Source: an uncultured Bacilli bacterium
GTDB lineage: Bacteria > Bacillota_I > Bacilli_A > RFN20 > CAG-826
Assembly: GCA_944358865.1 (NCBI GenBank)
Contig: CALVRV010000002.1
Span: 12,433 to 76,432, forward strand
Length of the DNA stretch: 64,000 bases
Direction: 5' to 3'
Positions within the stretch are counted from its first letter, which is position 1, and each line of letters starts with the position of its first letter. Below, piece by piece: positions 1-12,630 of the stretch. The notes beneath the pieces were generated by a model, which saw only the letters and a program-made list of their open reading frames with translations, was not told the origin of the DNA and ran no database searches. The position numbers were made by a program, and so were the translations under genes.

Positions 1-1428
1 TTGTATCGTCTAATGTCGACATCTGGATTAATTATTTATGCATTATTAAATGGCATTAATAAATTATTATCATTAAAAATTAATGAGAAATATTCTAAAA
101 TTATTTCACTTGTAATTTTATCTTTGTATTTAGTTTTTACGTTGTTTAAATTTTCAATTTTACGTTTGACAGTGCTTTTTGTTTTTCGTTGGATCAATCA
201 ATATATTCTAAAAAATAAATTTTCTTATATTAGTATATTGTCTTTTTCTGGAATTATCTTTTTAATAATTGATCCTTATTTAGCATATCAAGATAGTTTT
301 ATTTTAGGATATTTAATTTCTTTAATTATTTACTTTACTAGAAATTCCTTTGTTTATTTAAAAAAGTGGCAATTAAATTTACTTATACCATTTGTGGTCT
401 TTTTATTTTTTATTCCATTTGAAATTCAATATTATCATGAAGTAAATTTATTTTCTTTTTTAATCGTTAATATTCTTTCTCCATTTATTATTTTAATTTC
501 TGTTGTTACTTTATTATGTTTTTATAAAATTCCATTGTACAGCGCTTCAGATTTTCTAATCGATGGTTTTAAAAACACAATAAGCTTTTTTAATAATTTT
601 TCAATCAACATACATGCAGGTGAAATGGGGTTATTATTAACTATTATTTATGAATTTGCTTTAATAATTTTAATTTATATTTTTTCTATCAAATTCAAAC
701 CATTTTATTCATTTTCTCTTACTTTTTTGTTATTTTTATCAATATATTTTGTTCCTATAAACAACTATATTAGTAATGAAGTTACATTTTTAAATGTTGG
801 TCAAGGTGACGCGACTTATATAAGATATAAAAACAATCATATTTTAATTGATACTGGAGGAAGTAATTATCAAGACATAGCAAAAGAATGTCTTATACCA
901 TTTTTTAAAAAGAGGAAAATATATCATTTAGACTATGTAATTACCACTCATAATGACATTGATCATAGTGGAGCGTTAAATTCATTACAAGAAAATTTTA
1001 ATGTCAAAAATTATGTTTATTTAGAAAAAGATTTTCCTTTAAATATAAATGGATTAATATTAACAAATTTAAATAATCTTATAAGTGAATCGCAAGATGA
1101 AAACGATCGTTCACTCGTAATTAATTTTACTATTGGAGACACTGATTTTTTAATTATGGGTGATGCTTCAAAAAAGATTGAAAGCGACATTATTAAAAAA
1201 TATCCTAATTTGGAATGCGACGTTTTAAAAATTGGACATCATGGATCTAAAACATCAACAAGTCAACAATTTATTGATTTTTTAAGACCAAAAGATGCAA
1301 TAATCTCTTGTGGATTAGATAATAATTATGGTCATCCAGATAGTTATGTGTTGTCTATTTTAAATTCGTACGATGTAAATATTTATCGAACAGATCTACA
1401 ATCTAGTATTTCATATCATTTTTATTAA
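1..1428 (+). CDS. comEC: DNA internalization competence protein ComEC/Rec2, C-terminal part (5' end outside window)
   Basis: ORF is open to the window edge. Many hydrophobic helices are followed by a metallo-beta-lactamase domain (NVGQGDA, THNDIDHSG, GHHGS). It lies upstream of the holA-rpsT region as in Bacillus. Confidence 0.85.
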   Translation: MYRLMSTSGLIIYALLNGINKLLSLKINEKYSKIISLVILSLYLVFTLFKFSILRLTVLFVFRWINQYILKNKFSYISILSFSGIIFLIIDPYLAYQDSFILGYLISLIIYFTRNSFVYLKKWQLNLLIPFVVFLFFIPFEIQYYHEVNLFSFLIVNILSPFIILISVVTLLCFYKIPLYSASDFLIDGFKNTISFFNNFSINIHAGEMGLLLTIIYEFALIILIYIFSIKFKPFYSFSLTFLLFLSIYFVPINNYISNEVTFLNVGQGDATYIRYKNNHILIDTGGSNYQDIAKECLIPFFKKRKIYHLDYVITTHNDIDHSGALNSLQENFNVKNYVYLEKDFPLNINGLILTNLNNLISESQDENDRSLVINFTIGDTDFLIMGDASKKIESDIIKKYPNLECDVLKIGHHGSKTSTSQQFIDFLRPKDAIISCGLDNNYGHPDSYVLSILNSYDVNIYRTDLQSSISYHFY

Positions 1429-1503
1429 GTAAAAATTTTTACAAATAGTATAAATTCATAATATAAGAATAAATTTAAATAAAATTCCACAAAAGATTTT
1501 TTA

Positions 1504-1622
1504 TTGATACGTTATTTTAATTCTTTAATAACATTATCAATTTATATATTTACAATATATATATTATTCGATATAATGATATCGATAAAAAAGTATCGAA
1601 TATCTTGATACTAAAGTTATCA
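1504..1622. promoter_or_regulatory. Cluster of TATC(A/G)A half-sites forming several dyads (candidate operator array)
   Basis: TTGATAC 1504-1510 pairs with TTATCAA 1534-1540. TCGATAT-AATG-ATATCGA at 1568-1585 overlaps the -10 box. GTATC-N9-GATAC lies at 1593-1611 and TGATA-N7-TATCA at 1606-1622. Confidence 0.35.
1549..1577 (+). promoter_or_regulatory. Candidate sigma-A promoter of the rex-adhE-hydrogenase array
   Basis: -35 TTTACA (1549-1554), 17-nt spacer, consensus -10 TATAAT (1572-1577). RBS AAGGAGG at 1631-1637 precedes the rex ATG at 1643. Confidence 0.45.
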
Positions 1623-1642
1623 CGCTTTGAAAGGAGGTTAAT

Positions 1643-2296
1643 ATGGCTAAAAACGATGTCGTTTCTTATTCATTATCTACAATTCAAAGATTACCATCTT
1701 ATTTAAGAGCTTTAAATGATTTGGCAAGTCAAAATGAAGAATATGTAACGACAATAACTTTAGGCAAAATCTTAAATATTAATCCAATGTCAATTAAAAA
1801 AGACCTAGCTATTATATCTAGTAAAGAAGGTCTTCCACATTATGGATTTAAAATTTCTATTTTAATTAGCGACATTGAGACGATTTTAGGGTATGATAAT
1901 ACTAAGGATGCTGTTATTATTGGTGTCGGTCATTTAGGGCAAGCTTTACTGAGCTATCCAGGCTTTACCAATTATGGTGTAAATATTTGCCTAGGCTTTG
2001 ACATTGATAGCAATCTAATCGGCCAAACAATTCATGGTGTAACTATTATGCCTTTAACAAAATTAGAAGATTTGATCGAAAGGCTACATATTCACATTGC
2101 AATTATTTGTGTGCCAAAAGATGCCGCCCAAGAAATTGCTAATCGTTTGAGTAAAACAACGATACGGGCGATATGGAACTGGGCGCCGATTAACTTAGCA
2201 GTACCTGATAATATTGTTTTAAAAAACGAAGATATTGCCTCATCTTTAGCAATATTAACGAGCCAAATGGAGCAATCTATGAAAAGGAACAAGTGA
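1643..2296 (+). CDS. rex: Redox-sensing transcriptional repressor Rex
   Basis: N-terminal winged helix (TIQRLPSYLRAL) followed by a Rossmann NADH-binding motif (IIGVGHLGQAL). Length 217 aa is typical. It sits directly upstream of adhE. Confidence 0.9.
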   Translation: MAKNDVVSYSLSTIQRLPSYLRALNDLASQNEEYVTTITLGKILNINPMSIKKDLAIISSKEGLPHYGFKISILISDIETILGYDNTKDAVIIGVGHLGQALLSYPGFTNYGVNICLGFDIDSNLIGQTIHGVTIMPLTKLEDLIERLHIHIAIICVPKDAAQEIANRLSKTTIRAIWNWAPINLAVPDNIVLKNEDIASSLAILTSQMEQSMKRNK

Positions 2297-2300
2297 AATT

Positions 2301-4910
2301 ATGGAAGAAAGAAAAATTGTGGACAGCTTAGAAGCACTAGAAGCTGAAATTAAAAAAGTTAGAGAAGCACAAGCAAAATTTGCTACCTACACTCAAGAGC
2401 AAGTTGATGCAATTTTCTTAGCTAGTGCAAAAGCTGCTAATATGGCACGTATTCCTTTAGCCAAATTAGCAGTAGAAGAAACTGGAATGGGTGTCGTTGA
2501 AGACAAAGTAATTAAAAACCATTTCGCAAGCGAATATATTTATAACGCTTATCGTCATAGTCAAACTGTTGGTGTTTTTGAAGAAGACAAAGAATATGGT
2601 ATTAAAAAATTATATGAACCAATTGGTTTAGTAGGCGCTGTTATTCCTACTACTAATCCAACATCAACTGCCATTTTTAAAACTTTAATTTCTTTAAAAA
2701 CTAGAAATGGTATTATCATTTCACCACATCCAAGAGCAAAAAAATCAACTATTGCTGCTGCTAAAATTGTTTTAGATGCTGCAGTTAAAGCTGGTGCACC
2801 AGAAAATATTATTTCTTGGATTGATGTCCCATCTCTTGATATGACTACTTTATTGATGCATGAATCTGATATTATTCTTGCTACTGGTGGTCCTGGCATG
2901 GTTCATTCTGCTTATAGTAGTGGAAAACCAGCTTTAGGTGTCGGTGCTGGTAATACTCCTGCCATCATCGATAGTAGTGCTGACATTGTTTTAGCGGTCA
3001 ACTCAATTATTCATTCTAAAACATTTGATAATGGTATGATTTGTGCCAGTGAACAATCATGTATTGTTTTAGATGATGTTTATGATGCTGTTAAAGCTGA
3101 ATTTATCAAAAGAGGTTGTTATTTCTTGAATCCTGAAGAAACTGAAAAAGTTAGAAAAACAATCATCATTAATGGTGCGTTAAATGCTAAAATTGTTGGA
3201 CAAAAAGCTCATACAATTGCTAAATTAGCAGGCGTCGATGTTAAAGAAGATACTAAAGTTTTAATTGGCGAAGTCGAATCTGTTGATATAAGTGAAGAAT
3301 TTGCTCATGAAAAATTATCTCCAGTTCTTGCTATGTATCGCGCGAAAGACTTTACTGACGCAGTGGATAAAGCAAGCCATTTAATTGCTGATGGTGGTTA
3401 TGGTCATACATCTTCTTTATATATAAATGTTATTAAAGAACAAGAAAAAATTAATGTTTTCCAAGAAGCGATGAAAACTTGCCGTATTTTAATTAATACT
3501 CCTTCTAGCCAAGGTGGTATCGGTGATTTATATAACTTTAAATTATTACCATCATTGACTTTAGGTTGTGGATCCTGGGGAGGAAACTCGGTTAGTGAAA
3601 ACGTTGGAATTAAACATTTATTAAATATTAAAACCGTCGCTGAAAGGAGAAATAATATGTTGTGGTTTAGAGCCCCAAGCAAGGTTTATATTAAAAAAGG
3701 CTGTTTACCTGTTGCACTTCGTGAATTAAAAGAAGTTTATAATAAAAAAAGAGCCTTTATTGTTACAGACTCATTCTTATATAAAAATGGTTATACTAAA
3801 ACAATTGAAAAATGCTTATCAGAAATGGGCATTGAATATGCAACATTCTTTGATGTGGCACCAGATCCTACTTTACAATGTGCCCAAGAAGGTGTTAAAC
3901 AATTGAGTGCTTTCCAACCTGATGTCATTATATCTATCGGTGGTGGTAGCGCGATGGATGCTGGTAAAATCATGTGGGTTTTATATGAACATCCAGAATG
4001 TGATTTCCAAGATATGGCTATGCGTTTTAGCGATATTAGAAAAAGAGTATATCAATTCCCAAGAATGGGTGAAAAAGCATTCTTTATTGCTATTCCAACA
4101 AGTGCTGGTACTGGTAGTGAAGTTACTCCATTTGCTGTTATTACTGATGCGACAACTGGTACAAAATATCCTCTTGCCGACTATGAATTGATGCCTAATA
4201 TGGCAATTGTTGATACTGACTTAATGATGTCAGCGCCAAAAGGATTGACTTCTGCTAGTGGTATTGACGCAGTTAGCCATAACTTAGAAGCTTTAGTTTC
4301 AACAATGGCTACTGATTATACTGATGGCTTAGCTTTACAATCATTAAAAATGATTTTCGAATATTTACCACGTGCCTACAATGATGGACTTCATGATGTT
4401 GAAGCTCGTGAAAAAATGGCTAATGCTGCCACAATGGCTGGTATGGCATTTGCTAATGCTTTCTTAGGCGTTTGCCACTCTATGGCGCATAAATTGGGTG
4501 CATTCCATCATATTGCTCACGGTGTCGCTAATGCTTTAATGCTTGAAGAAGTTATCGCCTTTAACAGTGCTGATGTTCCTACTAAGATGGGTACATTCCC
4601 ACAATACGATCATCCATTTGCAAAACATAAATATGCTCTTGCCGCGGATGCCTTAGGTTTAAAAGGCAAAAATGATGACGAAAAAGTTGAAGCTTTAATC
4701 AAAGCAGTTCATGAATTAAAACATCAAATTGGTATTAAAGATACAATTAAAGAATATGGCATCGATGAAAAGAATTTCCTTGATCGTCTTGATGATATGG
4801 TCGAACAAGCTTTTGACGATCAATGTACAGGTGCCAACCCACGTTATCCTTTAATGAGTGAAATTAAACAAATGTATTTAAATGCCTATTATGGTAAGAA
4901 AGGAAAATAA
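2301..4910 (+). CDS. adhE: Bifunctional acetaldehyde-CoA/alcohol dehydrogenase AdhE
   Basis: 869 aa. N-terminal aldehyde dehydrogenase domain (catalytic MICASEQS). C-terminal iron-containing alcohol dehydrogenase domain (GGGSAMDAGK and a His-rich metal site, HSMAHKLGAFHHIAHG). Confidence 0.95.
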   Translation: MEERKIVDSLEALEAEIKKVREAQAKFATYTQEQVDAIFLASAKAANMARIPLAKLAVEETGMGVVEDKVIKNHFASEYIYNAYRHSQTVGVFEEDKEYGIKKLYEPIGLVGAVIPTTNPTSTAIFKTLISLKTRNGIIISPHPRAKKSTIAAAKIVLDAAVKAGAPENIISWIDVPSLDMTTLLMHESDIILATGGPGMVHSAYSSGKPALGVGAGNTPAIIDSSADIVLAVNSIIHSKTFDNGMICASEQSCIVLDDVYDAVKAEFIKRGCYFLNPEETEKVRKTIIINGALNAKIVGQKAHTIAKLAGVDVKEDTKVLIGEVESVDISEEFAHEKLSPVLAMYRAKDFTDAVDKASHLIADGGYGHTSSLYINVIKEQEKINVFQEAMKTCRILINTPSSQGGIGDLYNFKLLPSLTLGCGSWGGNSVSENVGIKHLLNIKTVAERRNNMLWFRAPSKVYIKKGCLPVALRELKEVYNKKRAFIVTDSFLYKNGYTKTIEKCLSEMGIEYATFFDVAPDPTLQCAQEGVKQLSAFQPDVIISIGGGSAMDAGKIMWVLYEHPECDFQDMAMRFSDIRKRVYQFPRMGEKAFFIAIPTSAGTGSEVTPFAVITDATTGTKYPLADYELMPNMAIVDTDLMMSAPKGLTSASGIDAVSHNLEALVSTMATDYTDGLALQSLKMIFEYLPRAYNDGLHDVEAREKMANAATMAGMAFANAFLGVCHSMAHKLGAFHHIAHGVANALMLEEVIAFNSADVPTKMGTFPQYDHPFAKHKYALAADALGLKGKNDDEKVEALIKAVHELKHQIGIKDTIKEYGIDEKNFLDRLDDMVEQAFDDQCTGANPRYPLMSEIKQMYLNAYYGKKGK

Positions 4911-4913
4911 AAA

Positions 4914-5669
4914 ATGGAACAAAAAAGAATTGTTGCTATCCGCACAGGAAAAACGATTTATCGTGAAAATGATAAATTATACAAAGTCTTTGAAGAAAAT
5001 TATAAAAAAAGCGACATTTTAAATGAAGCCTTAAACCATGCACGTGTCGAAGAAAGTGGTTTAGTTGTTCCAACTTTACACGAAGTGGGAAATATCGATG
5101 GCAAGTGGACTTTAGTGTATCAATATATTAAAGGTAAAACTTTAGAACAATTGATGGCTAAAAATCCAGATAAAATCGATGAATATTTAGAATTATTCGT
5201 TAATTTACAAATGGAAATTCATTCTAAATCTATTCCACATTTAAATAAAATCAAAGACAAAATTAAAGATCGTATTTCACAATGTGAACAATTAGACGCG
5301 ACGACAAGATATGAACTTCATACTCATCTTGCTTCTATGCCAAACCATGACCACGTTATTCATGGCGATTTCAATCCTTCTAATATTATTATTAGTGATG
5401 ATGATGGTAAAGTTTATGTTGTTGACTGGGCACACGCTAGTCAAGGTAATTCAAGTTATGATGCAGCGATGACATATTTATTGCTCCAATTAAGCGGTAA
5501 TTTGACACTTGCTGATAAATATTTAGATTTATATTGTAAGAAGACAAATACTTTAAAAAATTATGTCCAAAGTTGGATTCCAATTGTGGCTGCTGCTAAA
5601 CTTGTCACATGCCGCAAAGAAGAAGCTGAATTTTTAAAACATGCTTTAAATATTTATGATCATGAATAA
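4914..5669 (+). CDS. Aminoglycoside/choline-kinase-fold (APH family) phosphotransferase, substrate unknown
   Basis: HxDxxxxN catalytic loop (H150-GDFNPSN), metal-binding D in VVDW (D171) and a beta3-Lys candidate (LYKVF). The gene starts 3 nt after the adhE stop. Confidence 0.7.
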   Translation: MEQKRIVAIRTGKTIYRENDKLYKVFEENYKKSDILNEALNHARVEESGLVVPTLHEVGNIDGKWTLVYQYIKGKTLEQLMAKNPDKIDEYLELFVNLQMEIHSKSIPHLNKIKDKIKDRISQCEQLDATTRYELHTHLASMPNHDHVIHGDFNPSNIIISDDDGKVYVVDWAHASQGNSSYDAAMTYLLLQLSGNLTLADKYLDLYCKKTNTLKNYVQSWIPIVAAAKLVTCRKEEAEFLKHALNIYDHE

Positions 5670-5680
5670 GGAGTAGAAAT

Positions 5681-5929
5681 ATGGTTAAAGTTACAGTTTG
5701 TATTGGTAGTTCCTGCCATTTAAAAGGATCACGTCAAGTTGTTGAAGAATTACAATATCTTATTAAAGAAAACAATGTTGGTGATGAAGTTAATTTAGCT
5801 GGTGCATTTTGCATGGGCAAGTGCCAAGAAAAAGGCGTAAATGTTACTGTTGATGGCCAACATTATTCCATTTTACCAGAAGAAGTAAAACAATTTTTTA
5901 ACGATAAAATTTTAACAAAAATTAAATAA
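5681..5929 (+). CDS. Thioredoxin-like [2Fe-2S] ferredoxin (NuoE/HndA-like small protein)
   Basis: 82 aa with Cys pattern C7-x4-C12 ... C44-x3-C48 (CIGSSC ... CMGKC). It lies immediately upstream of the sensory hydrogenase gene. Confidence 0.7.
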   Translation: MVKVTVCIGSSCHLKGSRQVVEELQYLIKENNVGDEVNLAGAFCMGKCQEKGVNVTVDGQHYSILPEEVKQFFNDKILTKIK

Positions 5930-5959
5930 TTTTAATCTATTTATTAAAGTAGGGATAAG

Positions 5960-7675
5960 ATGATGATTAATTTTTTAGAATTTAAACCTGCCAAATGTAA
6001 AGACTGCTATAAATGTTTAAAACATTGTCCAGTCAACGCGATTGAGGTTATTAACCACCAAGCACAAATTATTTCTAGCCGATGTATTTTGTGTGGGAAT
6101 TGTACTCTTATTTGCCCGCAAAACGCTAAGAAAGTTCATAATTCAATTGATGAAGTGTTAGACCTTATTAAACAAAACGATAATGTTATTGCAAGTGTTG
6201 CACCAAGTTTTGTTTCTTCCTTTAACATCGATGATTTTGAAGTTATACGTGAAGCTTTAAAAACAATTGGCTTTAAAGATGCTTTTGAAACTGCAATCGG
6301 TGCTTATGCGGTATCAAGAGAATATGAAAAATTACTTGCTAGTGGTAAATTTAAAAATTTTATAACATCAGCTTGTCCCGCGATAAATAGAATGATTCAA
6401 CTTTATTATCATGATGCTTTAAAATATCTAGCGCCTGTTGTTTCTCCTATGGTCGCACATTATCGCATTATTAAAGCTAATAATCCTAATGCTAAAGTTG
6501 TATTTATTGGACCATGTATTGCTAAAAAAAGAGAAGCATATGAAAATAATTTAGATGGTTGCTTAACTTTTGAAGAAATCAATCAAATTTTTAAAAAAGA
6601 AAATATTGATTTAAGAAAAATTAATATTACTAATACTACTAAAGGTGTTGTTAATAGCGCTAAATATTATCCAATTAGTCGTGGCATAATTAAATCTTTT
6701 GATAATAATTTTGTAAAAGGCTATGAATATCTTGCTATGGATGGAAATCAAAAAGCAAGAGAAATACTTGATAATATCGATAAAGTTGATGGCATTTTTA
6801 TTGAACTTAATTCTTGTGATAATGCTTGTGTTAATGGACCTTGTTCATTACTAAGTAAAGGAACTAGTTTAAACGCTAATAGTGCAATTAGAAAATATGT
6901 TAGAAAAGATATTGTAAGCGGTGGAACTTCTAAATTAGAAATACCTGATAACATTGACTTTTCTTATCAATTTAAACCATTAGACGCTCATGATAGAGAA
7001 CCAAGCGAAGAAGAAATAAAAGATATTTTAGCTAGAACTGGTAAATATAGTAAAGAAGATGAATTAAATTGCGGTGCTTGTGGCTATGATACATGTAGAA
7101 AAAAAGCTTGGGCTGTTATAAATGGATATGCTGATATTGAAATGTGTGTTCCATATATGAGAAAAAAAGCTGAATCCATGTCTTATGAAATCATACAAAA
7201 TATGCCAAATGGTATTATTGTTTGTGATGACAATTATCATATAAAAGAAATAAATTCCATGGCATGCAAATTATTTTTAGTCTCACCAAATGAAGCTAAA
7301 AATATGTTTGTCTATGAACTAATGGATAGCAGTGCTTTTGAAGGAGCCTTAGAAAAAAAGAAAAATACCTATCATCAAAAAATAGATATTTTAAAAACTC
7401 ATTCTGTTGTGGATATGAGTGTTATTGCACTTAGAGAAGAGCATTCTGCTTTTGCTGTTTTAAAAGATATAACCGAAAAGCAAAAAGTCAAAAATGAATT
7501 TAATAAATTAAGAGCTAATACGATAAACACTACTGATGAAGTAATTAAAAAACAAATGCGTGTTGCGCAAGAAATAGCTTCTGTTTTAGGTGAAACTGTA
7601 GCAGAAACAAAAGTAGCAATATTAAATCTTAAAAAATCTTTAGAAAATGAAAATAAAATAGATGAGGATGAATAA
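5960..7675 (+). CDS. hydS: Sensory-type [FeFe] hydrogenase homologue with C-terminal PAS domain (HydS / group C-like)
   Basis: Two N-terminal CxxCxxCxxxCP ferredoxin motifs. Variant H-cluster motifs TSACP (136-140), GPCIAKKRE and ELNSCDNACVNGPC. Extra Cx2Cx4Cx16C motif (C371, C374, C379, C396), then a PAS-like region (about aa 405-520). Confidence 0.8.
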   Translation: MMINFLEFKPAKCKDCYKCLKHCPVNAIEVINHQAQIISSRCILCGNCTLICPQNAKKVHNSIDEVLDLIKQNDNVIASVAPSFVSSFNIDDFEVIREALKTIGFKDAFETAIGAYAVSREYEKLLASGKFKNFITSACPAINRMIQLYYHDALKYLAPVVSPMVAHYRIIKANNPNAKVVFIGPCIAKKREAYENNLDGCLTFEEINQIFKKENIDLRKINITNTTKGVVNSAKYYPISRGIIKSFDNNFVKGYEYLAMDGNQKAREILDNIDKVDGIFIELNSCDNACVNGPCSLLSKGTSLNANSAIRKYVRKDIVSGGTSKLEIPDNIDFSYQFKPLDAHDREPSEEEIKDILARTGKYSKEDELNCGACGYDTCRKKAWAVINGYADIEMCVPYMRKKAESMSYEIIQNMPNGIIVCDDNYHIKEINSMACKLFLVSPNEAKNMFVYELMDSSAFEGALEKKKNTYHQKIDILKTHSVVDMSVIALREEHSAFAVLKDITEKQKVKNEFNKLRANTINTTDEVIKKQMRVAQEIASVLGETVAETKVAILNLKKSLENENKIDEDE

Positions 7676-8840
7676 TAATATGTCATTATTTATTGATTTT
7701 GGATATACATCTTTAAATCATTTTGGTGAAGAACTTTGTGGTGACAAAGTTGAATATGCTAAAAATAATGATTATGTTACTTTAGTTTTAGCAGATGGTT
7801 TAGGAAGCGGAGTTAAGGCTAATATTTTAAGTACCTTAACTAGTAAAATTTTATGTACCATGGTATCTAATAACGTTTCAATAAATGAATGTTTAGAAAC
7901 AATGGTCGCGTCCTTACCTGTTTGTAAAGAACGTGGAGTTGCTTATTCAACTTTTACAGTTGTTCATATCAATCACGAAGGTAAAGGATTCCTATTTGAA
8001 TTTGATAATCCACAGGCTATTTATATTCATGATGGCAAATGTTTAGACTTAGAAAGAAAAAAGATTACTGTATCAGGAAAAGATGTCTATCAAAGTGATT
8101 TAAATTTAAAAGATAATGACTTTATTGTTACTATGAGTGATGGGGCAATTCATGCCGGTATTGGTGCGACATTAAATTTTGGATGGGAAAGAGAAGACAT
8201 TAAAAAATATTTAGAATCAGTCTATGATAAAAATATGTCCGCGAAAGCTATCGCGTGTAGTCTTGCTAAATCTTGCAACGATCTATATCTTGATAAGCCA
8301 GGTGATGATACCACCATCGCGGCAATTAAAATAAGAAAATCTTTACGTGTCCATATTATGGTTGGGCCACCAGTTGATAAAAGCAAAGATGAATATTATA
8401 TTTCTAGATTTTTAAAAGATGCAGATAAGACTATTGTGTGTGGAGGAACTTCTTCAACCATAGTAGCTCGTTATCTAAATAAACCTATTGAAGTCGATTT
8501 AACTTATTTAGATAGCGATGTGCCTCCAATGGGTAAAATTGAAGGTATTGATTTAGTTACTGAAGGAGTTTTAACCTTACGTAAATTGCTAGAACTAAGT
8601 GAAGAATATTTATCTATTGTTGATTTATCGCCTAAAATTTTTATTAAAAAAGATGGTGCGACTCGTCTAGCTGATATGCTATTTATTGAGGCAAGTGATG
8701 TTGATTTTTATGTCGGACAATCAATAAACGCAGCGCATCAAGGATTACCTATTGATATTACTATGAAACTTAAATTAGTAGAATCTTTAGCAAATAATTT
8801 AAAAAAAATGGGCAAAAATGTTACATTAAATTATGATTAA
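7662..8840 (+). CDS. PP2C/SpoIIE-family protein Ser/Thr phosphatase with uncharacterised C-terminal domain
   Basis: N-terminal half has SpoIIE-like motifs (CGDKVEY, LADGLGSGVKANILS, MSDGAIHAG, GDDTTIAAIK). The start may instead be the ATG at 7680, with GAGGA 11 nt upstream. The ORF overlaps the hydS stop. Confidence 0.8.
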   Translation: MRMNNNMSLFIDFGYTSLNHFGEELCGDKVEYAKNNDYVTLVLADGLGSGVKANILSTLTSKILCTMVSNNVSINECLETMVASLPVCKERGVAYSTFTVVHINHEGKGFLFEFDNPQAIYIHDGKCLDLERKKITVSGKDVYQSDLNLKDNDFIVTMSDGAIHAGIGATLNFGWEREDIKKYLESVYDKNMSAKAIACSLAKSCNDLYLDKPGDDTTIAAIKIRKSLRVHIMVGPPVDKSKDEYYISRFLKDADKTIVCGGTSSTIVARYLNKPIEVDLTYLDSDVPPMGKIEGIDLVTEGVLTLRKLLELSEEYLSIVDLSPKIFIKKDGATRLADMLFIEASDVDFYVGQSINAAHQGLPIDITMKLKLVESLANNLKKMGKNVTLNYD

Positions 8841-8867
8841 TATAAAATATTAAGTGAGGGAGAGTAA

Positions 8868-10313
8868 ATGAAAACTAAAAATTTTGATACCAAAGTACAA
8901 GACTTAAAATATCGTGTTTTAAAAGAAGTTGCAAAATATGCATGGGAAGGAACTTTAATTGATCATGTTTTAGATATTCCTAATATTATTGTTCCTGGTA
9001 AAAAACCTACCATGCGTTGCTGTGTTTATAAAGAAAAAGCTATCGCGGCTGAACGGGTAAAATTAGCGATGGGTGGTAATCCTAATAATCCTAATATTAT
9101 TGAAGTTATCGATATTGCATGTGATGATTGCCCAACTGGTGGTTTTCATGTCACTGATGCTTGTCGAGGCTGTTTAGCACATCGTTGTGAAGAAGCATGT
9201 CGACTTAACGCCATATATTTTGATGAAAATCGTCGCGCGCACATTGATAAGAGTAAATGTGTTGAATGTGGTCAATGCGCTAAATCGTGTTTTTATAACG
9301 CGATTATATCTTTTAAAAGACCATGCGAGGCATCTTGTAAAATTAACGCTATTAGCATGAGCGAAGATAAAACTGCTCGAATTAATAATGATGATTGTAT
9401 TGCATGTGGTGCTTGCTCATATCAATGTCCTTTTGGTGCTATTATGGACAAATCATTTATTATTAATGTTATTGATTTTATTAAAAAAAGTGAAAACAAC
9501 ACTAAATACAAAGTTTACGCTATTGTTGCGCCATCAATCGCGGGTCAATTTAGATATGCTAAATTAGGTCAAGTTGTCGCAGGTCTTAAAAAAATTGGAT
9601 TTTTTAGTGTTGTAGAAGTTGCTTTAGGTGCTGATATGGTTGCTTATCTAGAGAGCCAAGAATTAGCAAAAAAAGGCTTTTTAACTAGCTCTTGTTGTCC
9701 AGCATTTGTAAGTTATGTCGAAAAGAAATTTCCAAATTTAAAACAATATGTTTCTCATAATTTATCCCCAATGGGAACAATTGCTAAATATATAAAAGAG
9801 ACAGATCCAACTTCTAAGATTGTCTTTATTGGACCTTGCACGGCTAAAAAAGCTGAAATTAAACGTGATGAAGTCAAAGGATTAGTTGATGTAGTCATGA
9901 CTTTTGAAGAACTACAAGCTTTAATTGATTCTAAAGATATTGATTTAACAACTTTAGAAGATGATGTTTTAGATAATGCTTCATATTATGGTCGTATTTT
10001 TGCTCGTAGCGGTGGTGTTAGTGACGCAGTTAAACAAGCAATAAAAGAACAAAATATCGAATTTGAAGTTAAGCCTGAAGTATGTAATGGAATTGAGGCT
10101 TGCCGTCTAGCGCTTATTAAGAAAAATAATAATAAACTTGACGCTAATTTCATTGAAGGCATGGCTTGTGTTGGAGGCTGTATTGGTGGAGCAGGTAATG
10201 TTACCCACAGCATAATTAATGCAAGCGAAGTTGATAAATATGGTAGACAAGCTCTAGAAAAAAATATTACTACTGCTGTAAGTGTTTATGATTTAAACGT
10301 CAAATCAAAATAA
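8868..10313 (+). CDS. hydA: Catalytic-type monomeric [FeFe] hydrogenase
   Basis: Canonical H-cluster motifs TSSCCPAFV, GPCTAKKAE and EGMACVGGCIGGAG. Two 4Fe-4S ferredoxin motifs (CVECGQCAKSC, CIACGACSYQCP) and additional N-terminal Cys. Confidence 0.85.
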   Translation: MKTKNFDTKVQDLKYRVLKEVAKYAWEGTLIDHVLDIPNIIVPGKKPTMRCCVYKEKAIAAERVKLAMGGNPNNPNIIEVIDIACDDCPTGGFHVTDACRGCLAHRCEEACRLNAIYFDENRRAHIDKSKCVECGQCAKSCFYNAIISFKRPCEASCKINAISMSEDKTARINNDDCIACGACSYQCPFGAIMDKSFIINVIDFIKKSENNTKYKVYAIVAPSIAGQFRYAKLGQVVAGLKKIGFFSVVEVALGADMVAYLESQELAKKGFLTSSCCPAFVSYVEKKFPNLKQYVSHNLSPMGTIAKYIKETDPTSKIVFIGPCTAKKAEIKRDEVKGLVDVVMTFEELQALIDSKDIDLTTLEDDVLDNASYYGRIFARSGGVSDAVKQAIKEQNIEFEVKPEVCNGIEACRLALIKKNNNKLDANFIEGMACVGGCIGGAGNVTHSIINASEVDKYGRQALEKNITTAVSVYDLNVKSK

Positions 10314-10314
10314 G

Positions 10315-11295
10315 ATGATTTATTTATTGTATGGTGATCAAAATGTAATGATTAACAATCGTTTAAAAAAGATTGTTAAAGAAAGACTTCCTTTTCAAGA
10401 TGCTTTAAATTATATTACTTTTGACCTAGATAATAGCGATATCAAACAAGCTATTGATGAAGCGTGTTATTTACCTTTAGGATATGATCATAAAGTTGTT
10501 GTTATTAAAAATTGCAATTTTTTAAGAAAAACACCTTTAAAAACAAGAAATAAAAATAATGATAGCAATCAAGATTTATCTTTGTTAATAAAATATTTAA
10601 AAAAAGATAATAATCAATGCGATTTAATTTTGATTTATCAAGGTAGTGATATTAATCTTTCAAGTGACATTTATAAAATTATCAGCGAAAAAGGACAAGT
10701 TAAACAACTTCTATCAATTGAAAGAAAAGACTGGAATACATACATATATCGTTATTTTGTCGAATCTTTAAAAATTCAAATTGATCGCGACGCTATTGAA
10801 GAATTGGCTAATCGAGTCAAGGGCGATTTAAATATTTTTGTTAATGAAGCAAATAAATTATCATTATACACTGACCATGTTCGATATGAAGATGTTGTTA
10901 AATTAGTCACACGTCCTTTAGAAGATAATGCTTTTAGTATTTTTAATTATTTATTAGATAAAAATATTAATGACGCTTTAATATTATTAGATGATTTATT
11001 TTTTGATAATGTTGAACCAGTTACTTTAATATCGATGCTTGCTAATCAATTCCGTCTTCTTTTGGAAATTATTCATTTAGCAAGAAATAATAATTTAAAT
11101 AATGCTCAAATTGCTGAAGAATTAAAAATAAAAGAAGTAAGGGTAAAAATATTAAAAAAATATCTTTTTACCATATCTATTAATCAAATAATGGATGTAT
11201 TAGATAATTTATATTTTTTAGATTATAAAATAAAAAGCGGACAAGTCGACCGCTTCTTTGCTTTTAAAATGTTTGTAATAAATTTTAATTTTTAA
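10315..11295 (+). CDS. holA: DNA polymerase III delta subunit
   Basis: 326 aa with N-terminus IYLLYGDQ typical of HolA. Its position between comEC and rpsT matches Bacillus. Confidence 0.8.
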   Translation: MIYLLYGDQNVMINNRLKKIVKERLPFQDALNYITFDLDNSDIKQAIDEACYLPLGYDHKVVVIKNCNFLRKTPLKTRNKNNDSNQDLSLLIKYLKKDNNQCDLILIYQGSDINLSSDIYKIISEKGQVKQLLSIERKDWNTYIYRYFVESLKIQIDRDAIEELANRVKGDLNIFVNEANKLSLYTDHVRYEDVVKLVTRPLEDNAFSIFNYLLDKNINDALILLDDLFFDNVEPVTLISMLANQFRLLLEIIHLARNNNLNNAQIAEELKIKEVRVKILKKYLFTISINQIMDVLDNLYFLDYKIKSGQVDRFFAFKMFVINFNF

Positions 11296-11304
11296 AAATA
11301 AAAT

Positions 11305-11571
11305 TTATTTTGCAATAGAATTGACTAAATTAGCAATTTCTGCTTTTTGTCTTGCACCTGTATTTTGATGTTGAATGCCATCAGAAACAGATTTATCAAT
11401 TAAACGATAAGCTTCTTGCATTAATTTATTTGCTAATTCATAGTCTTTGCCTTCAACAGCTTTTCTTACTTTTTTAATAGCAGTACGAACTGCAGATTTT
11501 GCACTTGCGTTACGCATACGTGCTTTTTCATTTGTTCTATTACGTTTTTCTTGTGATTTAATGTTTGCCAT
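11305..11571 (-). CDS. rpsT: 30S ribosomal protein S20
   Basis: 88 aa, MANIKSQEKR...N-terminus, basic alpha-helical protein typical of S20. Confidence 0.95.
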   Translation of the reverse strand: MANIKSQEKRNRTNEKARMRNASAKSAVRTAIKKVRKAVEGKDYELANKLMQEAYRLIDKSVSDGIQHQNTGARQKAEIANLVNSIAK

Positions 11572-11598
11572 AACTAATTCCTCTTTATAACGGCTATT

Positions 11599-11627
11599 AT
11601 GATATCAAAAAAGATATTAGCATTCAA
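11599..11627 (-). promoter_or_regulatory. Candidate rpsT promoter
   Basis: On the minus strand: TTGAAT (11627-11622), 17-nt spacer, TATCAT (11604-11599). RBS AAGAGGA follows upstream of the rpsT ATG. Confidence 0.4.
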
Positions 11628-11690
11628 CATAAATGTTGTTTTTTTACATTTTAGATATTTATTTTTTTAAAAAAAGCTATAATAGTTGAT

Positions 11691-12629
11691 ATGGAAACAA
11701 AATCTTGTCGAATTTTATTTATGGGCACTAGTGAAATATCTAGTTATGTTTTAGAATCATTAATTTTAGCTAATTATAATGTTGTTGGTGCAATTTCTCA
11801 GCCAGATAAGGCAGTTGGAAGAAAGAAAATTTTAACACCTACAAGTGTCAAATTAGTGTGTCAAAAATATCATATCAATTGTTATCAACCAATAAAAATT
11901 AGAAATGATTTTGAATTTGTAAAAGATTTAAAACCAGATGTAATTATAACATTTGCTTATGGTCAAATCGTGCCGCAGGAATTATTAGATATTCCAACGA
12001 TTGGATCAATTAATTTACATGGTTCTATTTTACCAAAACTACGTGGCGCCGCTCCTATACAACGAGCGATTATTAATGGTGATAAAATAACTGGCATTAC
12101 CTTAATGGAAATGGTCAATAAAATGGATGCTGGTAAGATGTATGCTAAAAAATATTTAAATATTGACGATGATGATAATTCGACAACATTGTTTAATAAA
12201 ATGAAAATATTAGCTAAAGATGTTATTTTAGAATATCTTCCTTTATATATTAACGGTTCATTAAAAGGTGAAGAGCAAGATGAAAGCCAAGTTAGTTTTG
12301 CTAATATGATCAAAAAAGATGATGAAAAATTAAAATTAGATTTGACATGTAAACAATTTATAAATTGGGTTAGAGGATTAAGTGAGAATCCAGGCGGATA
12401 TTTATATTTTAAAAATAAAAAACTTATTTTATACAAAGTAAAATTATCTTTACTTTCTCCTTCAAATTGTCTTGGAGAAATAATTAATGCTGATAAAAAT
12501 AGTCTTACTTTTTCTTTAAAAGATGGGGCAATTGATATTCTTGAATTAAAATTAGAAGGTAAAAATAAAATGTCATATAAGGATTTTGTCAATGGTCACC
12601 ATGATTTATTAGGTGAAATATTATCTTAA
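11691..12629 (+). CDS. fmt: Methionyl-tRNA formyltransferase
   Basis: 312 aa. Contains ILFMGT, the formyltransferase core SINLHGSILPKLRGAAPIQRAI, and a C-terminal Fmt domain. Confidence 0.9.
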   Translation: METKSCRILFMGTSEISSYVLESLILANYNVVGAISQPDKAVGRKKILTPTSVKLVCQKYHINCYQPIKIRNDFEFVKDLKPDVIITFAYGQIVPQELLDIPTIGSINLHGSILPKLRGAAPIQRAIINGDKITGITLMEMVNKMDAGKMYAKKYLNIDDDDNSTTLFNKMKILAKDVILEYLPLYINGSLKGEEQDESQVSFANMIKKDDEKLKLDLTCKQFINWVRGLSENPGGYLYFKNKKLILYKVKLSLLSPSNCLGEIINADKNSLTFSLKDGAIDILELKLEGKNKMSYKDFVNGHHDLLGEILS

Positions 12630-12630
12630 T

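What the first reader, a model, noticed from the sequence alone, without database searches (positions are those of the whole stretch)
1643..10313. Rex and AdhE packed into one gap-free array with an Hfs-like H2-sensing hydrogenase, kinase and phosphatase module, inserted between comEC and holA
Seen in sequence: seven same-strand genes (rex, adhE, APH-fold kinase, 2Fe-2S ferredoxin, PAS-containing HydS-type hydrogenase, PP2C phosphatase, catalytic HydA). They are separated by 4, 3, 11, 30, -14 and 27 nt. Only one convincing promoter (1549-1577) lies in front of the array. Established knowledge: comEC and holA are near neighbours in Bacillus-type genomes, so this ~8.7 kb block interrupts a conserved backbone. 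Rex represses adhE and hydrogenase genes in many anaerobic Firmicutes. Group C [FeFe] hydrogenases are proposed H2 sensors that co-occur with Ser/Thr kinase and phosphatase genes. As I recall it, the Thermoanaerobacterium hfs cluster (small Fe-S protein, PAS hydrogenase, phosphatase, hydrogenase) influences ethanol yield through adhE. Inference: the NADH sensor, the putative H2 sensor, a phospho-relay and both electron sinks (ethanol via AdhE, H2 via HydA) appear to form one transcription unit. That would be a compact redox-disposal switch whose phospho-target is unknown. The hydEFG maturase genes are not in this window.
Basis: partly seen in the sequence, partly recalled or inferred. Interest (0 to 1): 0.75.

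Follow-up and report, generated by a model that had tools for sequence, protein, structure and literature searches.

The report
Known hydrogen-sensing fermentation switch operon
The seven-gene block that couples an NADH sensor, a putative hydrogen sensor, a kinase and a phosphatase to ethanol and hydrogen production is real, but the same genes in the same order are already described in Ruminococcus albus and are common in gut and rumen bacteria.

Summary
Seven same-strand genes lie at exactly the stated coordinates: rex, adhE, an APH-fold kinase, a 2Fe-2S ferredoxin, a PAS-containing HydS, a PP2C phosphatase and a group B [FeFe] hydrogenase. They have tiny gaps, one strong conserved promoter and no terminator.

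The arrangement is not new. Ruminococcus albus 7 plasmid pRUMAL01 carries rex-adhE-phosphotransferase-fdx-fdx-HydS-SpoIIE phosphatase-HydA2 in the same order. That eight-gene cluster is published as falling 111-fold when an H2 consumer is present (Greening 2019). Its four-gene core is the Thermoanaerobacterium hfsABCD operon.

I found the full or nearly full array in many uncultured Bacillota. Bacteroidales carry it without the kinase.

Corrections:
- The phosphatase probably starts at 7680, giving a gap of +4 rather than an overlap of 14.
- holA follows hydA after 1 nt with no ribosome-binding site, so the unit may not end at 10313.

Three side results may be new:
- A conserved palindrome ATCGATA-N6-TATCGAT, a variant Rex box, overlaps the promoter. 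It replaces the canonical Rex box in this HydS clade.
- The kinase is tied to adhE, which lies directly upstream in 52 of 59 loci, rather than to HydS.
- The phosphatase is tied to HydS, in 76 of 80 loci.

Verdict: a new member of a known kind, of modest interest.

The parts
1..1428 (+). 3' part of comEC (upstream flank)
   Evidence: Competence and Lactamase_B domains, TIGR00361. comEA-comEC precede the cluster in the relatives L001, L085, L086 and L087.
1549..1577 (+). sigma-70-type promoter: -35 TTTACA (1549-1554), 17-nt spacer, -10 TATAAT (1572-1577)
   Evidence: Best-scoring site, 11 of 12. The -10 GATATAAT is invariant and a -35-like hexamer is kept in L085, L086 and L087.
1567..1600 (.). 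Two overlapping 20-bp palindromes: TTCGATATAATGATATCGAT (1567-1586, with the -10 box in its spacer) and ATCGATAAAAAAGTATCGAA (1581-1600, across the predicted transcription start). Candidate operator, a variant Rex box TCGATAA-N4-TTATCGA.
   Evidence: These are the only two matches in 64 kb with one mismatch or fewer. The same palindrome lies upstream of the first cluster gene in 19 of 81 loci against about 1% background; it never co-occurs with a canonical Rex box, which occupies the same place in 16 other loci.
1643..2296 (+). rex: cluster-encoded Rex paralogue (NAD(H)-sensing repressor)
   Evidence: NF003994 at 235 bits against cut-off 130; PF06971 and PF02629. GVGHLG Rossmann motif and GFD are kept; the YFG after the recognition helix is replaced by IIS.
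2301..4910 (+). adhE: bifunctional acetaldehyde-CoA/alcohol dehydrogenase
   Evidence: NF010378 at 1371 bits. 74% identical to the R. albus 7 cluster AdhE.
4914..5669 (+). APH/Bud32/RIO-like kinase (251 aa), the adhE-linked kinase
   Evidence: PF01636. K24, H150-G-D152, N157 and D171 are invariant in 13 homologues. adhE lies directly upstream in 16 of 18 and 52 of 59 informative loci.
5681..5929 (+). Thioredoxin-like 2Fe-2S ferredoxin (position of HfsA; orthologue of the first of the two R. albus fdx genes)
   Evidence: PF01257 and NuoE-family hits. 65% identical to the first R. albus fdx and 42% to the second. Present next to HydS in 73 of 80 loci.
5960..7675 (+). HydS: group C-type putative sensory [FeFe] hydrogenase (2x4Fe-4S, H-domain, C-terminal FeS, PAS, conserved C-terminal helix)
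   Evidence: Pfam domains. The L1 motif is TSACP, with Ala in place of the proton-relay Cys, and GPC replaces MPC; both were mapped on PDB 7p5h. 38% identical over full length to R. albus HydS, Rumal_3405, listed as HydDB group C3.
7680..8840 (+). PP2C (SpoIIE/RsbU-type) phosphatase with an uncharacterised 160-aa C-terminal alpha/beta domain. The longest ORF starts at 7662; the likely start is 7680.
   Evidence: PF07228. Homologues are 386 aa. The AF2 model has pLDDT 82, and the best PDB matches are SpoIIE, RsbX and the Rv1364c RsbU domain. The C-terminal domain has no significant match. Adjacent to HydS in 76 of 80 loci.
8868..10313 (+). Group B [FeFe] hydrogenase (orthologue of HydA2/HfsD), catalytic motifs intact
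   Evidence: TIGR04105 at 579 bits against cut-off 450. Motifs TSSCCP, GPCTAKK and MACVGGCIGG. 66% identical to R. albus HydA2.
10315..11295 (+). holA (DNA polymerase III delta): downstream flank, possibly co-transcribed and translationally coupled
   Evidence: TIGR01128 at 218 bits. Starts 1 nt after the hydA stop, with no SD sequence, promoter-like site or terminator between them. The gap is 3, 51 and 66 nt in relatives.

Best explanation
This is the copy, in an uncultured low-GC Bacillota lineage, of the HydS-associated fermentation switch first described on Ruminococcus albus 7 plasmid pRUMAL01. That cluster is rex-adhE-kinase-fdx-fdx-hydS-PP2C-hydA2. The Thermoanaerobacterium hfsABCD operon is its four-gene core.

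Shown:
- Gene content, gene order, the catalytic and sensory sequence signatures, a conserved promoter, and a conserved palindrome over that promoter.

Inferred:
1. One promoter drives rex through hydA, and probably holA as well.
2. A Rex-type repressor, most likely the cluster's own paralogue, sits on the ATCGATA-N6-TATCGAT palindromes that cover the -10 box and the transcription start. It leaves when NADH/NAD+ rises. That happens when H2 accumulates and NADH can no longer be disposed of as H2.
3. The cell then makes AdhE, which sends NADH to ethanol, and a ferredoxin-dependent group B hydrogenase, which sends reduced ferredoxin to H2.
4. HydS, with its 2Fe-2S partner and its tightly coupled PP2C partner, forms an H2/redox-gated phosphatase module.
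5. The APH-like kinase, which is genomically bound to adhE, supplies the opposing phosphorylation. The substrate is unknown; AdhE is the best genomic candidate.
For: R. albus 7 pRUMAL01 has the identical order, with 34-74% protein identity. The published transcriptome shows that eight-gene cluster 111-fold down when H2 is removed by a consumer, with ethanol dropping as well (PMC6776011; PMC10838669). Deleting hfsA or hfsB raises adhE expression and ethanol yield, and hfsB is stated to be homologous to hydS (PMC5707799; PMC11837493).

The array recurs widely:
- All seven genes occur in 7 of 80 species-representative loci, and more copies are cut by contig ends.
- Bacteroidales carry it without the kinase.
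- The complete array occurs in 19 of 80 kinase-centred metagenome loci.

Evidence for a single unit:
- Gaps are 3-30 nt and every gene from rex to hydA has an SD sequence.
- There is no terminator.
- The promoter is conserved.

Evidence on the operator:
- The variant box occurs in 19 of 81 loci and the canonical Rex box in 16 of 81, each against about 1% background. None has both, and they occupy the same position.
- The variant box goes with rex as first gene in 14 of 18 loci, against 3 of 16 for the canonical box (Fisher p = 0.0016).

Evidence on the proteins:
- HydS has the sensory signature, Cys to Ala at the CpI C299 position as in TmHydS A131 (PMC10055695).
- The HydA motifs are intact.
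- The kinase catalytic residues are invariant.
- The PP2C has the SpoIIE/RsbU fold.
Against: - There are no expression or biochemical data for this organism.
- H2 sensing by any group C hydrogenase has never been demonstrated directly.
- The protein that binds the palindrome is not known. Four loci with the variant box have no rex nearby. R. albus and L003 have 7-nt rather than 6-nt spacing. The Rex recognition helix shows no clean change that tracks operator type.
- Promoter-like hexamers inside the array are as frequent as chance, so internal promoters cannot be excluded.
- The two modules occur separately elsewhere, as adhE-kinase alone and as fdx-hydS-PP2C-hydA alone. They need not signal to each other.
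- The kinase belongs to a fold that mostly phosphorylates small molecules. Pkinase scores 21 bits against a cut-off of 32.
Confidence: 0.8

Rival explanations
1. Rex alone makes the switch. H2 is read only indirectly, through NADH/NAD+. Ferredoxin, HydS, PP2C and HydA are subunits or assembly and tuning factors of one Hfs-type hydrogenase complex, and no H2 signal passes through phosphorylation to gene expression.
For: A Rex-type box, variant or canonical, precedes the cluster in 35 of 81 loci. That is enough to explain H2-dependent expression through the NADH/NAD+ ratio. In T. saccharolyticum hfsABCD is described as the main hydrogenase, and deleting all four genes lowers hydrogenase activity (PMC5707799). 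fdx-hydS-PP2C-hydA is an almost invariant block, with PP2C in 76 of 80 loci and fdx in 73 of 80.
Against: Deleting hfsB alone raises hydrogenase activity and adhE expression. A full deletion has a weaker phenotype than the A or B deletions, which the authors read as regulation. HydS lacks the proton-relay Cys and carries a PAS domain. TmHydS has low activity (PMC10055695).
Confidence: 0.25
2. The array is two or more transcription units that happen to be packed together: rex-adhE-kinase, and fdx-hydS-PP2C-hydA(-holA) with an internal promoter.
For: The two modules exist separately in many genomes. There are at least 15 adhE-kinase pairs with no HydS module, and many fdx-hydS-PP2C-hydA clusters have their own Rex box directly upstream of fdx. 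A 10-of-12 promoter-like site lies at 5502-5529 inside the kinase gene, about 150 nt before fdx. holA, an essential gene, follows hydA and needs expression even when the switch is off.
Against: There is no terminator and the gaps are 3-30 nt. The number of promoter-like sites is below the shuffled expectation, 60 against 68. All eight R. albus genes change together, 111-fold. The variant operator occurs only once, in front of rex.
Confidence: 0.3
3. The 'kinase' phosphorylates a small molecule, as most APH-fold enzymes do. It is linked to adhE for a metabolic reason and is not the partner of the PP2C.
For: The best family is APH PF01636, with weaker hits to choline kinase, hygromycin kinase and thiamine kinase. 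Pkinase is below its cut-off. The kinase and PP2C distributions are largely independent, with the kinase in 18 of 80 HydS loci and PP2C in 76 of 80.
Against: It is small, at 251 aa. It also hits Bud32 and RIO, which are atypical protein kinases. It is always immediately downstream of one AdhE clade, with 66-80% identity, even when the pair is moved to the other end of the cluster in L012 and L037. No small-molecule pathway genes accompany it.
Confidence: 0.2
4. The block is a recently acquired mobile island inserted between comEC and holA.
For: GC content is higher in the block, 0.28-0.38, than in the flanks, 0.19-0.27. The same cluster sits on a plasmid in R. albus and in unrelated contexts elsewhere. 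AdhE and HydA are 66-80% identical to those of Clostridia.
Against: The block has the same position and flanks in relatives down to 67% HydS identity, and identities fall in step with the flanking genes. There are no flanking direct repeats, integrase or transposase. Any acquisition is therefore old.
Confidence: 0.1

Closest known systems
Ruminococcus albus 7 pRUMAL01 cluster rex-adhE-phosphotransferase-fdx-fdx-hydS-SpoIIE phosphatase-hydA2 (NC_014824.1 138999-147916; HydS is Rumal_3405 and HydA2 is Rumal_3407)
   Same: Same genes, same order and same strand. Junctions are tight and the HydS and PP2C genes overlap or nearly overlap. A palindrome of ATCGATA half-sites lies upstream of rex. Protein identities are Rex 34%, AdhE 74%, kinase 53%, fdx 65%, HydS 38%, PP2C 45% and HydA 66%. 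It is published as one H2-responsive unit.
   Different: The window has one ferredoxin gene instead of two. Its location is chromosomal, between comEC and holA, instead of on a plasmid. Its HydS has Ala rather than Cys at the proton-relay position, where R. albus has SSCCH. The operator spacing is 6 nt rather than 7, and it overlaps the promoter. holA is fused to the end of the array.
hfsABCD operon of Thermoanaerobacterium saccharolyticum
   Same: The four-gene core has the same order: small Fe-S protein, PAS hydrogenase, Ser phosphatase, ferredoxin-linked hydrogenase. Genetics link it to adhE expression and ethanol yield.
   Different: In Thermoanaerobacterium, rex, adhE and a kinase are not part of the operon; adhE is elsewhere (Tsac_0416). 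I had no Tsac sequences in hand, so homology rests on the literature statement that HfsB corresponds to HydS and HfsD to HydA2.
Group C (putative sensory) [FeFe] hydrogenases such as Thermotoga maritima HydS
   Same: The H-cluster cysteines are kept. The proton-relay Cys is replaced by Ala, as in TmHydS A131. Met353 is replaced. There is an extra C-terminal 4Fe-4S motif and a PAS domain.
   Different: According to the literature read here, other sensory [FeFe] hydrogenases are usually encoded upstream of bifurcating hydrogenases, often with a histidine/serine kinase gene between them (PMC3561251). Here the partners are a PP2C, a group B hydrogenase and AdhE.
HoxBC-HoxJ-HoxA H2-sensing system of Ralstonia eutropha ([NiFe] regulatory hydrogenase)
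   Same: It works on the same logic: a low-activity hydrogenase senses H2 and controls, through phosphorylation, the expression of catalytic hydrogenases (described).
   Different: It is not homologous. It uses a [NiFe] sensor, a histidine kinase and a response regulator, and it serves H2 oxidation rather than fermentation.
Canonical Rex regulon of Clostridia (operator TTGTTAA-N4-TTAACAA)
   Same: The repressor has a winged-helix plus Rossmann architecture. The operator has the same 18-bp geometry and the same position in front of HydS, adhE and hydrogenase clusters.
   Different: The half-site is TCGATAA instead of TTGTTAA, two changes per half-site. The repressor is encoded in the operon it controls. 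It lacks the YFG motif after the recognition helix.

Membership tests
R. albus-type HydS/HydA2/AdhE cluster | Gene content and order: rex, adhE, APH-like kinase, 2Fe-2S ferredoxin(s), HydS, PP2C, ferredoxin-dependent hydrogenase, all on one strand | tested here: met
   The annotated region of NC_014824.1 was compared with the window. The window has one ferredoxin fewer.
R. albus-type HydS/HydA2/AdhE cluster | Co-regulation of the whole cluster by H2 partial pressure | not testable with these tools
   Known only for R. albus 7 (PMC6776011). No expression data exist for this organism.
hfsABCD operon | Order: small Fe-S protein, PAS [FeFe] hydrogenase, Ser phosphatase, [FeFe] hydrogenase | tested here: met
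   Window 5681-10313 has this order. It is the commonest architecture among 80 HydS loci.
hfsABCD operon | Sequence homology to T. saccharolyticum HfsA-D | not tested
   No Tsac sequences were available in the collections. The equivalences HfsB to HydS and HfsD to HydA2 are taken from PMC5707799 and PMC11837493.
Group C sensory [FeFe] hydrogenase | H-cluster-ligating cysteines present, with an altered second sphere (CpI C299 and M353 replaced) | tested here: met
   C139, C186, C286 and C290 are invariant in A1. TSACP and GPC align to TSCCP and MPC of PDB 7p5h.
Group C sensory [FeFe] hydrogenase | C-terminal extra Fe-S motif plus PAS domain | tested here: met
   PF04060 at 40.8 bits. PAS PF00989 scores 24.1 bits (cut-off 22.6) on the isolated C-terminal part and 21.4 bits in the whole protein.
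Group C sensory [FeFe] hydrogenase | Assignment by the HydDB classifier (subgroup C3, phosphatase-linked) | not tested
   HydDB is not available here. The indirect evidence is 38% full-length identity to Rumal_3405, listed as group C3, and an adjacent PP2C.
Group C sensory [FeFe] hydrogenase | Actual H2 sensing and signal output | not testable with these tools
   This needs biochemistry. It is unproven for any member.
Group B [FeFe] hydrogenase | Score above the curated cut-off of TIGR04105 and intact L1-L3 motifs | tested here: met
   579 bits against 450. Motifs TSSCCP, GPCTAKK and MACVGGCIGG.
Rex redox-sensing repressor | Winged-helix N-domain plus Rossmann NAD(H) domain, above a curated equivalog cut-off | tested here: met
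   NF003994 at 235 bits against 130; PF06971 and PF02629. The GVGHLG motif is present.
Rex redox-sensing repressor | Canonical operator TTGTGAA-N4-TTCACAA or TTGTTAA-N4-TTAACAA in front of its targets | tested here: not met
   There is no match with 3 or fewer mismatches near the cluster. A variant, TCGATAA-N4-TTATCGA, is there instead.
Hanks-type Ser/Thr protein kinase | Pkinase domain above the Pfam gathering score | tested here: not met
   PF00069 scores 21.4 bits against 31.7. The best family is APH, and the protein also hits Bud32 and RIO. The catalytic residues K, HGDxxxxN and D are present.
Partner-switching PP2C (SpoIIE/RsbU/RsbX type) | PP2C fold closest to SpoIIE/RsbU/RsbX, with the metal-binding Asp motifs | tested here: met
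   Foldseek finds 5mqh at E = 3.5e-12, then 5ucg, 3ke6 and 3w40. Motifs ADGLGSG, SDG and GDDTT are present.
Partner-switching PP2C (SpoIIE/RsbU/RsbX type) | A STAS-domain substrate and a GHKL anti-sigma kinase in the same system | tested here: not met
   No STAS or HATPase domain occurs in any cluster protein. The C-terminal domain of the phosphatase is a generic alpha/beta fold with no significant match.

The most novel reading that the evidence does not exclude
The APH-like kinase is a dedicated AdhE kinase, and the HydS-PP2C pair is its H2-gated antagonist. H2 partial pressure would then control ethanol flux post-translationally on AdhE itself. A cluster-encoded Rex paralogue with a re-tuned operator (TCGATAA-N4-TTATCGA) would keep the operon insulated from the global Rex regulon.
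Probability: 0.2. Interest if true: 0.65.

Novelty: new member of a known kind. Interest (0 to 1): 0.33.

Why it matters
How fermenting anaerobes decide between ethanol and H2, and how the widespread 'sensory' [FeFe] hydrogenases pass on their signal, is still unsolved. It matters for gut and rumen H2 and methane budgets and for ethanol strain engineering.

This locus adds no new kind of system. The comparison made here does narrow the search:
- The phosphatase belongs to HydS.
- The kinase belongs to one AdhE clade.
- The cluster is preceded either by a canonical Rex box or, in this clade, by a distinct variant box, usually together with its own Rex paralogue.

These give concrete, cheap experiments in R. 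albus 7: an EMSA with the paralogue, and a kinase assay on AdhE.

Tried and rejected
- **Canonical Rex box.** A search in the window found nothing near the cluster.
- **Rfam.** A scan of the whole window gave no hits, so no riboswitch or leader RNA is evident.
- **Terminators.** No terminator-like site lies between genes.
- **Mobile element.** There are no flanking direct or inverted repeats and no mobility genes.
- **PP2C C-terminal domain.** I tested whether it is a STAS substrate or a GHKL kinase. Pfam at E up to 5 gave nothing. PDB sequence search gave nothing. A separate AF2 model (pLDDT 84) had no PDB match better than E = 0.01 and TM 0.49. The idea is rejected.
- **Tsac_0415.** I tested whether this gene, next to adhE in T. 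saccharolyticum, is the homologous kinase. The paper says it is of unknown function, genus-restricted and divergently transcribed. The idea is rejected.
- **Rex recognition helix.** I looked for residue changes tracking operator type and found no clean pattern.
- **adhE-kinase pairs without HydS.** A search for recurrent genes downstream of them found none.
- **Regulator genes next to variant-box loci that lack rex.** None were found.
- **Zheng et al. 2014.** The original R. albus paper is not held in the library, so it is cited only through papers that describe it.
- **Organism name.** The closest named species-representative HydS reach only 54-55% identity: an Erysipelotrichaceae MAG at 54% and an unclassified Bacillota MAG at 55%.
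- **Literature on the palindrome.** A search for the sequence together with 'Rex' was uninformative.


Full report
**What is there.** Pfam and NCBIfam identify them as follows:
- Rex: NF003994, 235 bits against a cut-off of 130.
- AdhE: NF010378, 1371 bits.
- A 251-aa APH-fold kinase.
- An 82-aa thioredoxin-like 2Fe-2S ferredoxin.
- A 571-aa [FeFe] hydrogenase homologue with two N-terminal 4Fe-4S motifs, an H-domain, a C-terminal Fe-S motif (PF04060) and a PAS domain.
- A SpoIIE-family PP2C phosphatase.
- A 481-aa hydrogenase above the curated cut-off of TIGR04105, the 'monomeric [FeFe] hydrogenase' B1 family (579 against 450 bits).

The flanks are comEC and holA. They are followed by rpsT on the opposite strand, then fmt, a DinG-like helicase, lepA, hemW, hrcA, grpE and dnaK. 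From my own knowledge this is the Bacillus 'yqe' backbone.

No ORF of a size compatible with HydE, HydF or HydG has such an assignment. The statement that the maturases are outside the window stands.

**Sequence signatures.**
- HydS keeps the four H-cluster cysteines; C139, C186, C286 and C290 are invariant in 14 homologues. It reads TSACP and GPC where catalytic enzymes read TSCCP and MPC, as shown by alignment to PDB 7p5h. The proton-relay Cys (CpI C299) and Met353 are therefore replaced, exactly as described for the sensory TmHydS, which has A131 (PMC10055695).
- The downstream hydrogenase keeps TSSCCP, GPCTAKK and MACVGGCIGG. It is 66% identical to R. albus HydA2.
- The kinase keeps the beta3 Lys, HGDxxxxN and the metal-binding Asp in all 13 homologues aligned. 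It scores below threshold for Pkinase and best for APH, with Bud32/RIO-like hits.
- The phosphatase has the PP2C Asp motifs. An AlphaFold model (pLDDT 82) is closest to SpoIIE, RsbX and the RsbU domain of Rv1364c. Its conserved 160-residue C-terminal domain is a generic alpha/beta fold with no significant sequence or structure match. It is neither a STAS domain nor a GHKL kinase.

**Packing and signals.**
- The site 1549-1577 (TTTACA-17-TATAAT) is the best promoter match in the region. It is conserved in three related genomes, where the comEC-rex spacer is only 76-94 nt.
- No terminator-like hairpin lies between genes.
- Every gene from rex to hydA has a Shine-Dalgarno sequence.
- First correction: the phosphatase homologues are uniformly about 386 aa. 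Relatives start it at the ATG equivalent to 7680, behind a GAGGA. The -14 overlap is therefore probably a +4 gap.
- Second correction: holA begins 1 nt after the hydA stop, with no SD sequence and no promoter-like site. The gap is 3, 51 and 66 nt in relatives. The transcript may run into this essential replication gene.
- Promoter-like hexamers inside the array are no more frequent than in shuffles, 60 against 68. Internal promoters can be neither claimed nor excluded.

**The arrangement is already known.**
- A tblastn of HydS against PLSDB found Ruminococcus albus 7 plasmid pRUMAL01. Its annotation reads: Rex, AdhE, phosphotransferase, two (2Fe-2S) ferredoxins, [Fe-Fe] hydrogenase domain protein, SpoIIE phosphatase, 4Fe-4S dicluster protein. 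All lie on one strand with tight junctions. The order is the same as in the window, with one extra ferredoxin.
- Greening et al. 2019 report that this 'putative eight-gene cluster' shows the largest change in the transcriptome, 111-fold down, when R. albus grows with the H2 consumer Wolinella. They propose that the group C hydrogenase senses H2 and induces AdhE and the ferredoxin-only hydrogenase (PMC6776011). Their supplement lists Rumal_3405 as group C3 and Rumal_3407 as group B.
- Eminoglu et al. 2017 and later papers equate hfsB with hydS and hfsD with hydA2. They show that deleting hfsA or hfsB raises adhE expression and ethanol yield.

**How common it is.**
- I scanned one genome per GTDB species with a HydS alignment and kept the 80 best loci. 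Mapping the window proteins onto them shows PP2C next to HydS in 76 of 80 loci, the small ferredoxin in 73, a hydrogenase in 57, adhE in 25, rex in 22 and the kinase in 18.
- All seven genes occur together in seven loci: an Erysipelotrichaceae MAG, a Stercoripulliclostridium MAG and several Clostridia MAGs. Two of these have the adhE-kinase pair moved behind hydA. More copies are cut by contig ends.
- Several Bacteroidales carry rex-adhE-fdx-hydS-PP2C-hydA without the kinase and with a different AdhE clade (48% identity).
- A kinase-centred scan of metagenome contigs found the complete array in 19 of 80 loci.
- Both samples are the best 80 of more than 600 matches, so they are biased towards relatives.

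**Position in this lineage.** Contigs carrying HydS at 98, 78, 69 and 67% identity all have the cluster between comEA-comEC and holA-rpsT. Cluster proteins are more conserved than the flanking ones; for example AdhE is 91/87/85% identical against holA at 67/55/55%. There are no bracketing repeats or mobility genes. Given the Bacillus order comEC-holA (my own knowledge), the block is an insertion relative to that backbone. It is an old and stably inherited one. I found no relative with an empty site.

**Side result 1: a variant Rex box.**
- No canonical Rex box occurs near the cluster.
- Aligning the promoter regions of the four related genomes exposed a conserved element after the -10 box.
- The same palindrome, ATCGATA-N6-TATCGAT, lies upstream of the first cluster gene in R. 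albus (with N7 spacing) and in many other loci, including Bacteroidales.
- In the window there are two overlapping copies, 1567-1586 with the -10 hexamer in its spacer and 1581-1600 across the predicted start. They are the only matches in 64 kb with one mismatch or fewer.
- Read as an 18-mer it is TCGATAA-N4-TTATCGA. That is the geometry of the clostridial Rex box TTGTTAA-N4-TTAACAA with two changes per half-site.
- Among 81 loci, 19 have the variant box and 16 have a canonical box within 300 nt upstream of the first gene. Each compares with about 1% of random 300-nt windows, and none has both.
- The variant box is confined to the HydS clade of the window (at least 51% identity). The canonical box occurs in the more distant clade.
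- The variant box goes with a cluster-encoded rex as first gene in 14 of 18 loci, against 3 of 16 for the canonical box (p = 0.0016).
- The cluster Rex proteins keep the Rossmann motif but lack the YFG that follows the recognition helix in B. subtilis Rex. I saw no residue pattern that cleanly tracks the operator type.
- I infer, but have not shown, that the cluster's own Rex paralogue binds this operator and autoregulates the operon.

**Side result 2: who travels with whom.**
- In the HydS-centred sample adhE lies directly upstream of the kinase in 16 of 18 informative cases. In the kinase-centred sample it does so in 52 of 59, plus two more with one inserted ORF.
- fdx-hydS follows the kinase in only 44 of 68 loci. 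At least 15 loci have an adhE-kinase pair with no HydS module and no other recurrent neighbour.
- Every AdhE of the 66-80% identity clade is followed by the kinase. AdhEs below 50% identity are not.
- PP2C is almost inseparable from HydS. The kinase and phosphatase are therefore not an obligate pair; the kinase is an AdhE-linked gene.
- This makes AdhE the best genomic candidate for the kinase's substrate or partner. It fits the remark by Eminoglu et al. that the changes in AdhE activity exceed what transcription explains. It remains an inference, and a small-molecule substrate is a serious alternative.

**Mechanism I commit to.**
1. One promoter drives rex through hydA, and probably holA.
2. 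A Rex-type repressor on the promoter-overlapping palindromes releases it when NADH/NAD+ rises, as happens when H2 builds up.
3. AdhE then drains NADH into ethanol, and the group B hydrogenase drains reduced ferredoxin into H2.
4. HydS, its 2Fe-2S partner and the PP2C form an H2/redox-gated phosphatase. The adhE-linked kinase opposes it on a still unknown target.

Confidence is high that this is a member of the R. albus-type cluster with the published function. Confidence is moderate for the Rex-operator step and low for the phospho-target.

**Verdict.** It is a new member of a known kind. The variant operator and the adhE-kinase and HydS-PP2C pairing rules are small, testable additions.

Noticed in passing
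window 1567-1600; also L083:4277-4297, L013:5541-5574, L006:227-246, L008, L024, L025 and others: A conserved palindrome ATCGATA-N6-TATCGAT (variant Rex box TCGATAA-N4-TTATCGA) overlaps the cluster promoter. It is found in Bacillota and Bacteroidales. It is mutually exclusive with the canonical Rex box at the same position and is associated with a cluster-encoded rex.
   Followed up: yes
window 2301-5669; L012, L037, L083 and 52 of 59 kinase-centred metagenome loci: adhE (the clade at 66-80% identity) and the APH-like kinase form an almost invariant adjacent pair. This holds even when the pair is moved to the other end of the cluster, and also where no HydS module is present.
   Followed up: yes
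window 10311-10317: holA, an essential clamp-loader subunit, starts 1 nt after the hydA stop codon. There is no Shine-Dalgarno sequence, promoter-like site or terminator between them, so it may be read through and translationally coupled to a redox-regulated operon. The gap is 3, 51 and 66 nt in relatives.
   Followed up: partly
window 8334-8840 (residues about 225-386 of the phosphatase): A highly conserved 160-residue C-terminal alpha/beta domain of the HydS-linked PP2C has many invariant positions across Bacillota and Bacteroidales. It has no Pfam, PDB-sequence or Foldseek match.
   Followed up: yes
window 7520-7660 (HydS residues about 521-561): An almost invariant C-terminal helical segment follows the PAS domain (VIKKQMRVAQEIASxLGETxAETKVAxLxLKK). 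No domain is assigned. It may be the contact to the phosphatase.
   Followed up: no
window 1429-1642 compared with L085:5611-5686, L086:5608-5692 and L087:3657-3750: The comEC-rex spacer is 214 nt in the window but 76-94 nt in relatives. The window also has a 26-nt insertion in the 5' leader (TATCTTGATACTAAAGTTATCACGCT) that contains a short inverted repeat, TGATA-N7-TATCA.
   Followed up: no
window 1-14000: GC content of the cluster (0.28-0.38) is clearly above that of the flanking housekeeping genes (0.19-0.27). This fits either old lateral acquisition or strong coding constraint.
   Followed up: partly
L006, L008, L017, L020, L021, L024, L025 (Bacteroidales MAGs): The Bacteroidales versions of the cluster lack the kinase. 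They use a different AdhE clade (about 48% identity) or a separate Fe-ADH-only gene next to the ferredoxin. L020 has a second operator copy in front of that adh gene.
   Followed up: partly
PMC6776011 main text compared with its supplementary file 2: The paper's text calls the R. albus ferredoxin-only hydrogenase 'group A1', while its supplement aligns Rumal_3407 to HydDB group B. The window orthologue scores as group B1 (TIGR04105).
   Followed up: partly
window 16879-18330 and 24565-25749: A 483-aa ORF lies between lepA and hemW with no family hit at strict thresholds; relatives show a weak Fic domain. A 394-aa protein with an N-terminal peptidase C39 domain interrupts the otherwise Bacillus-like backbone after dnaJ.
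   Followed up: no
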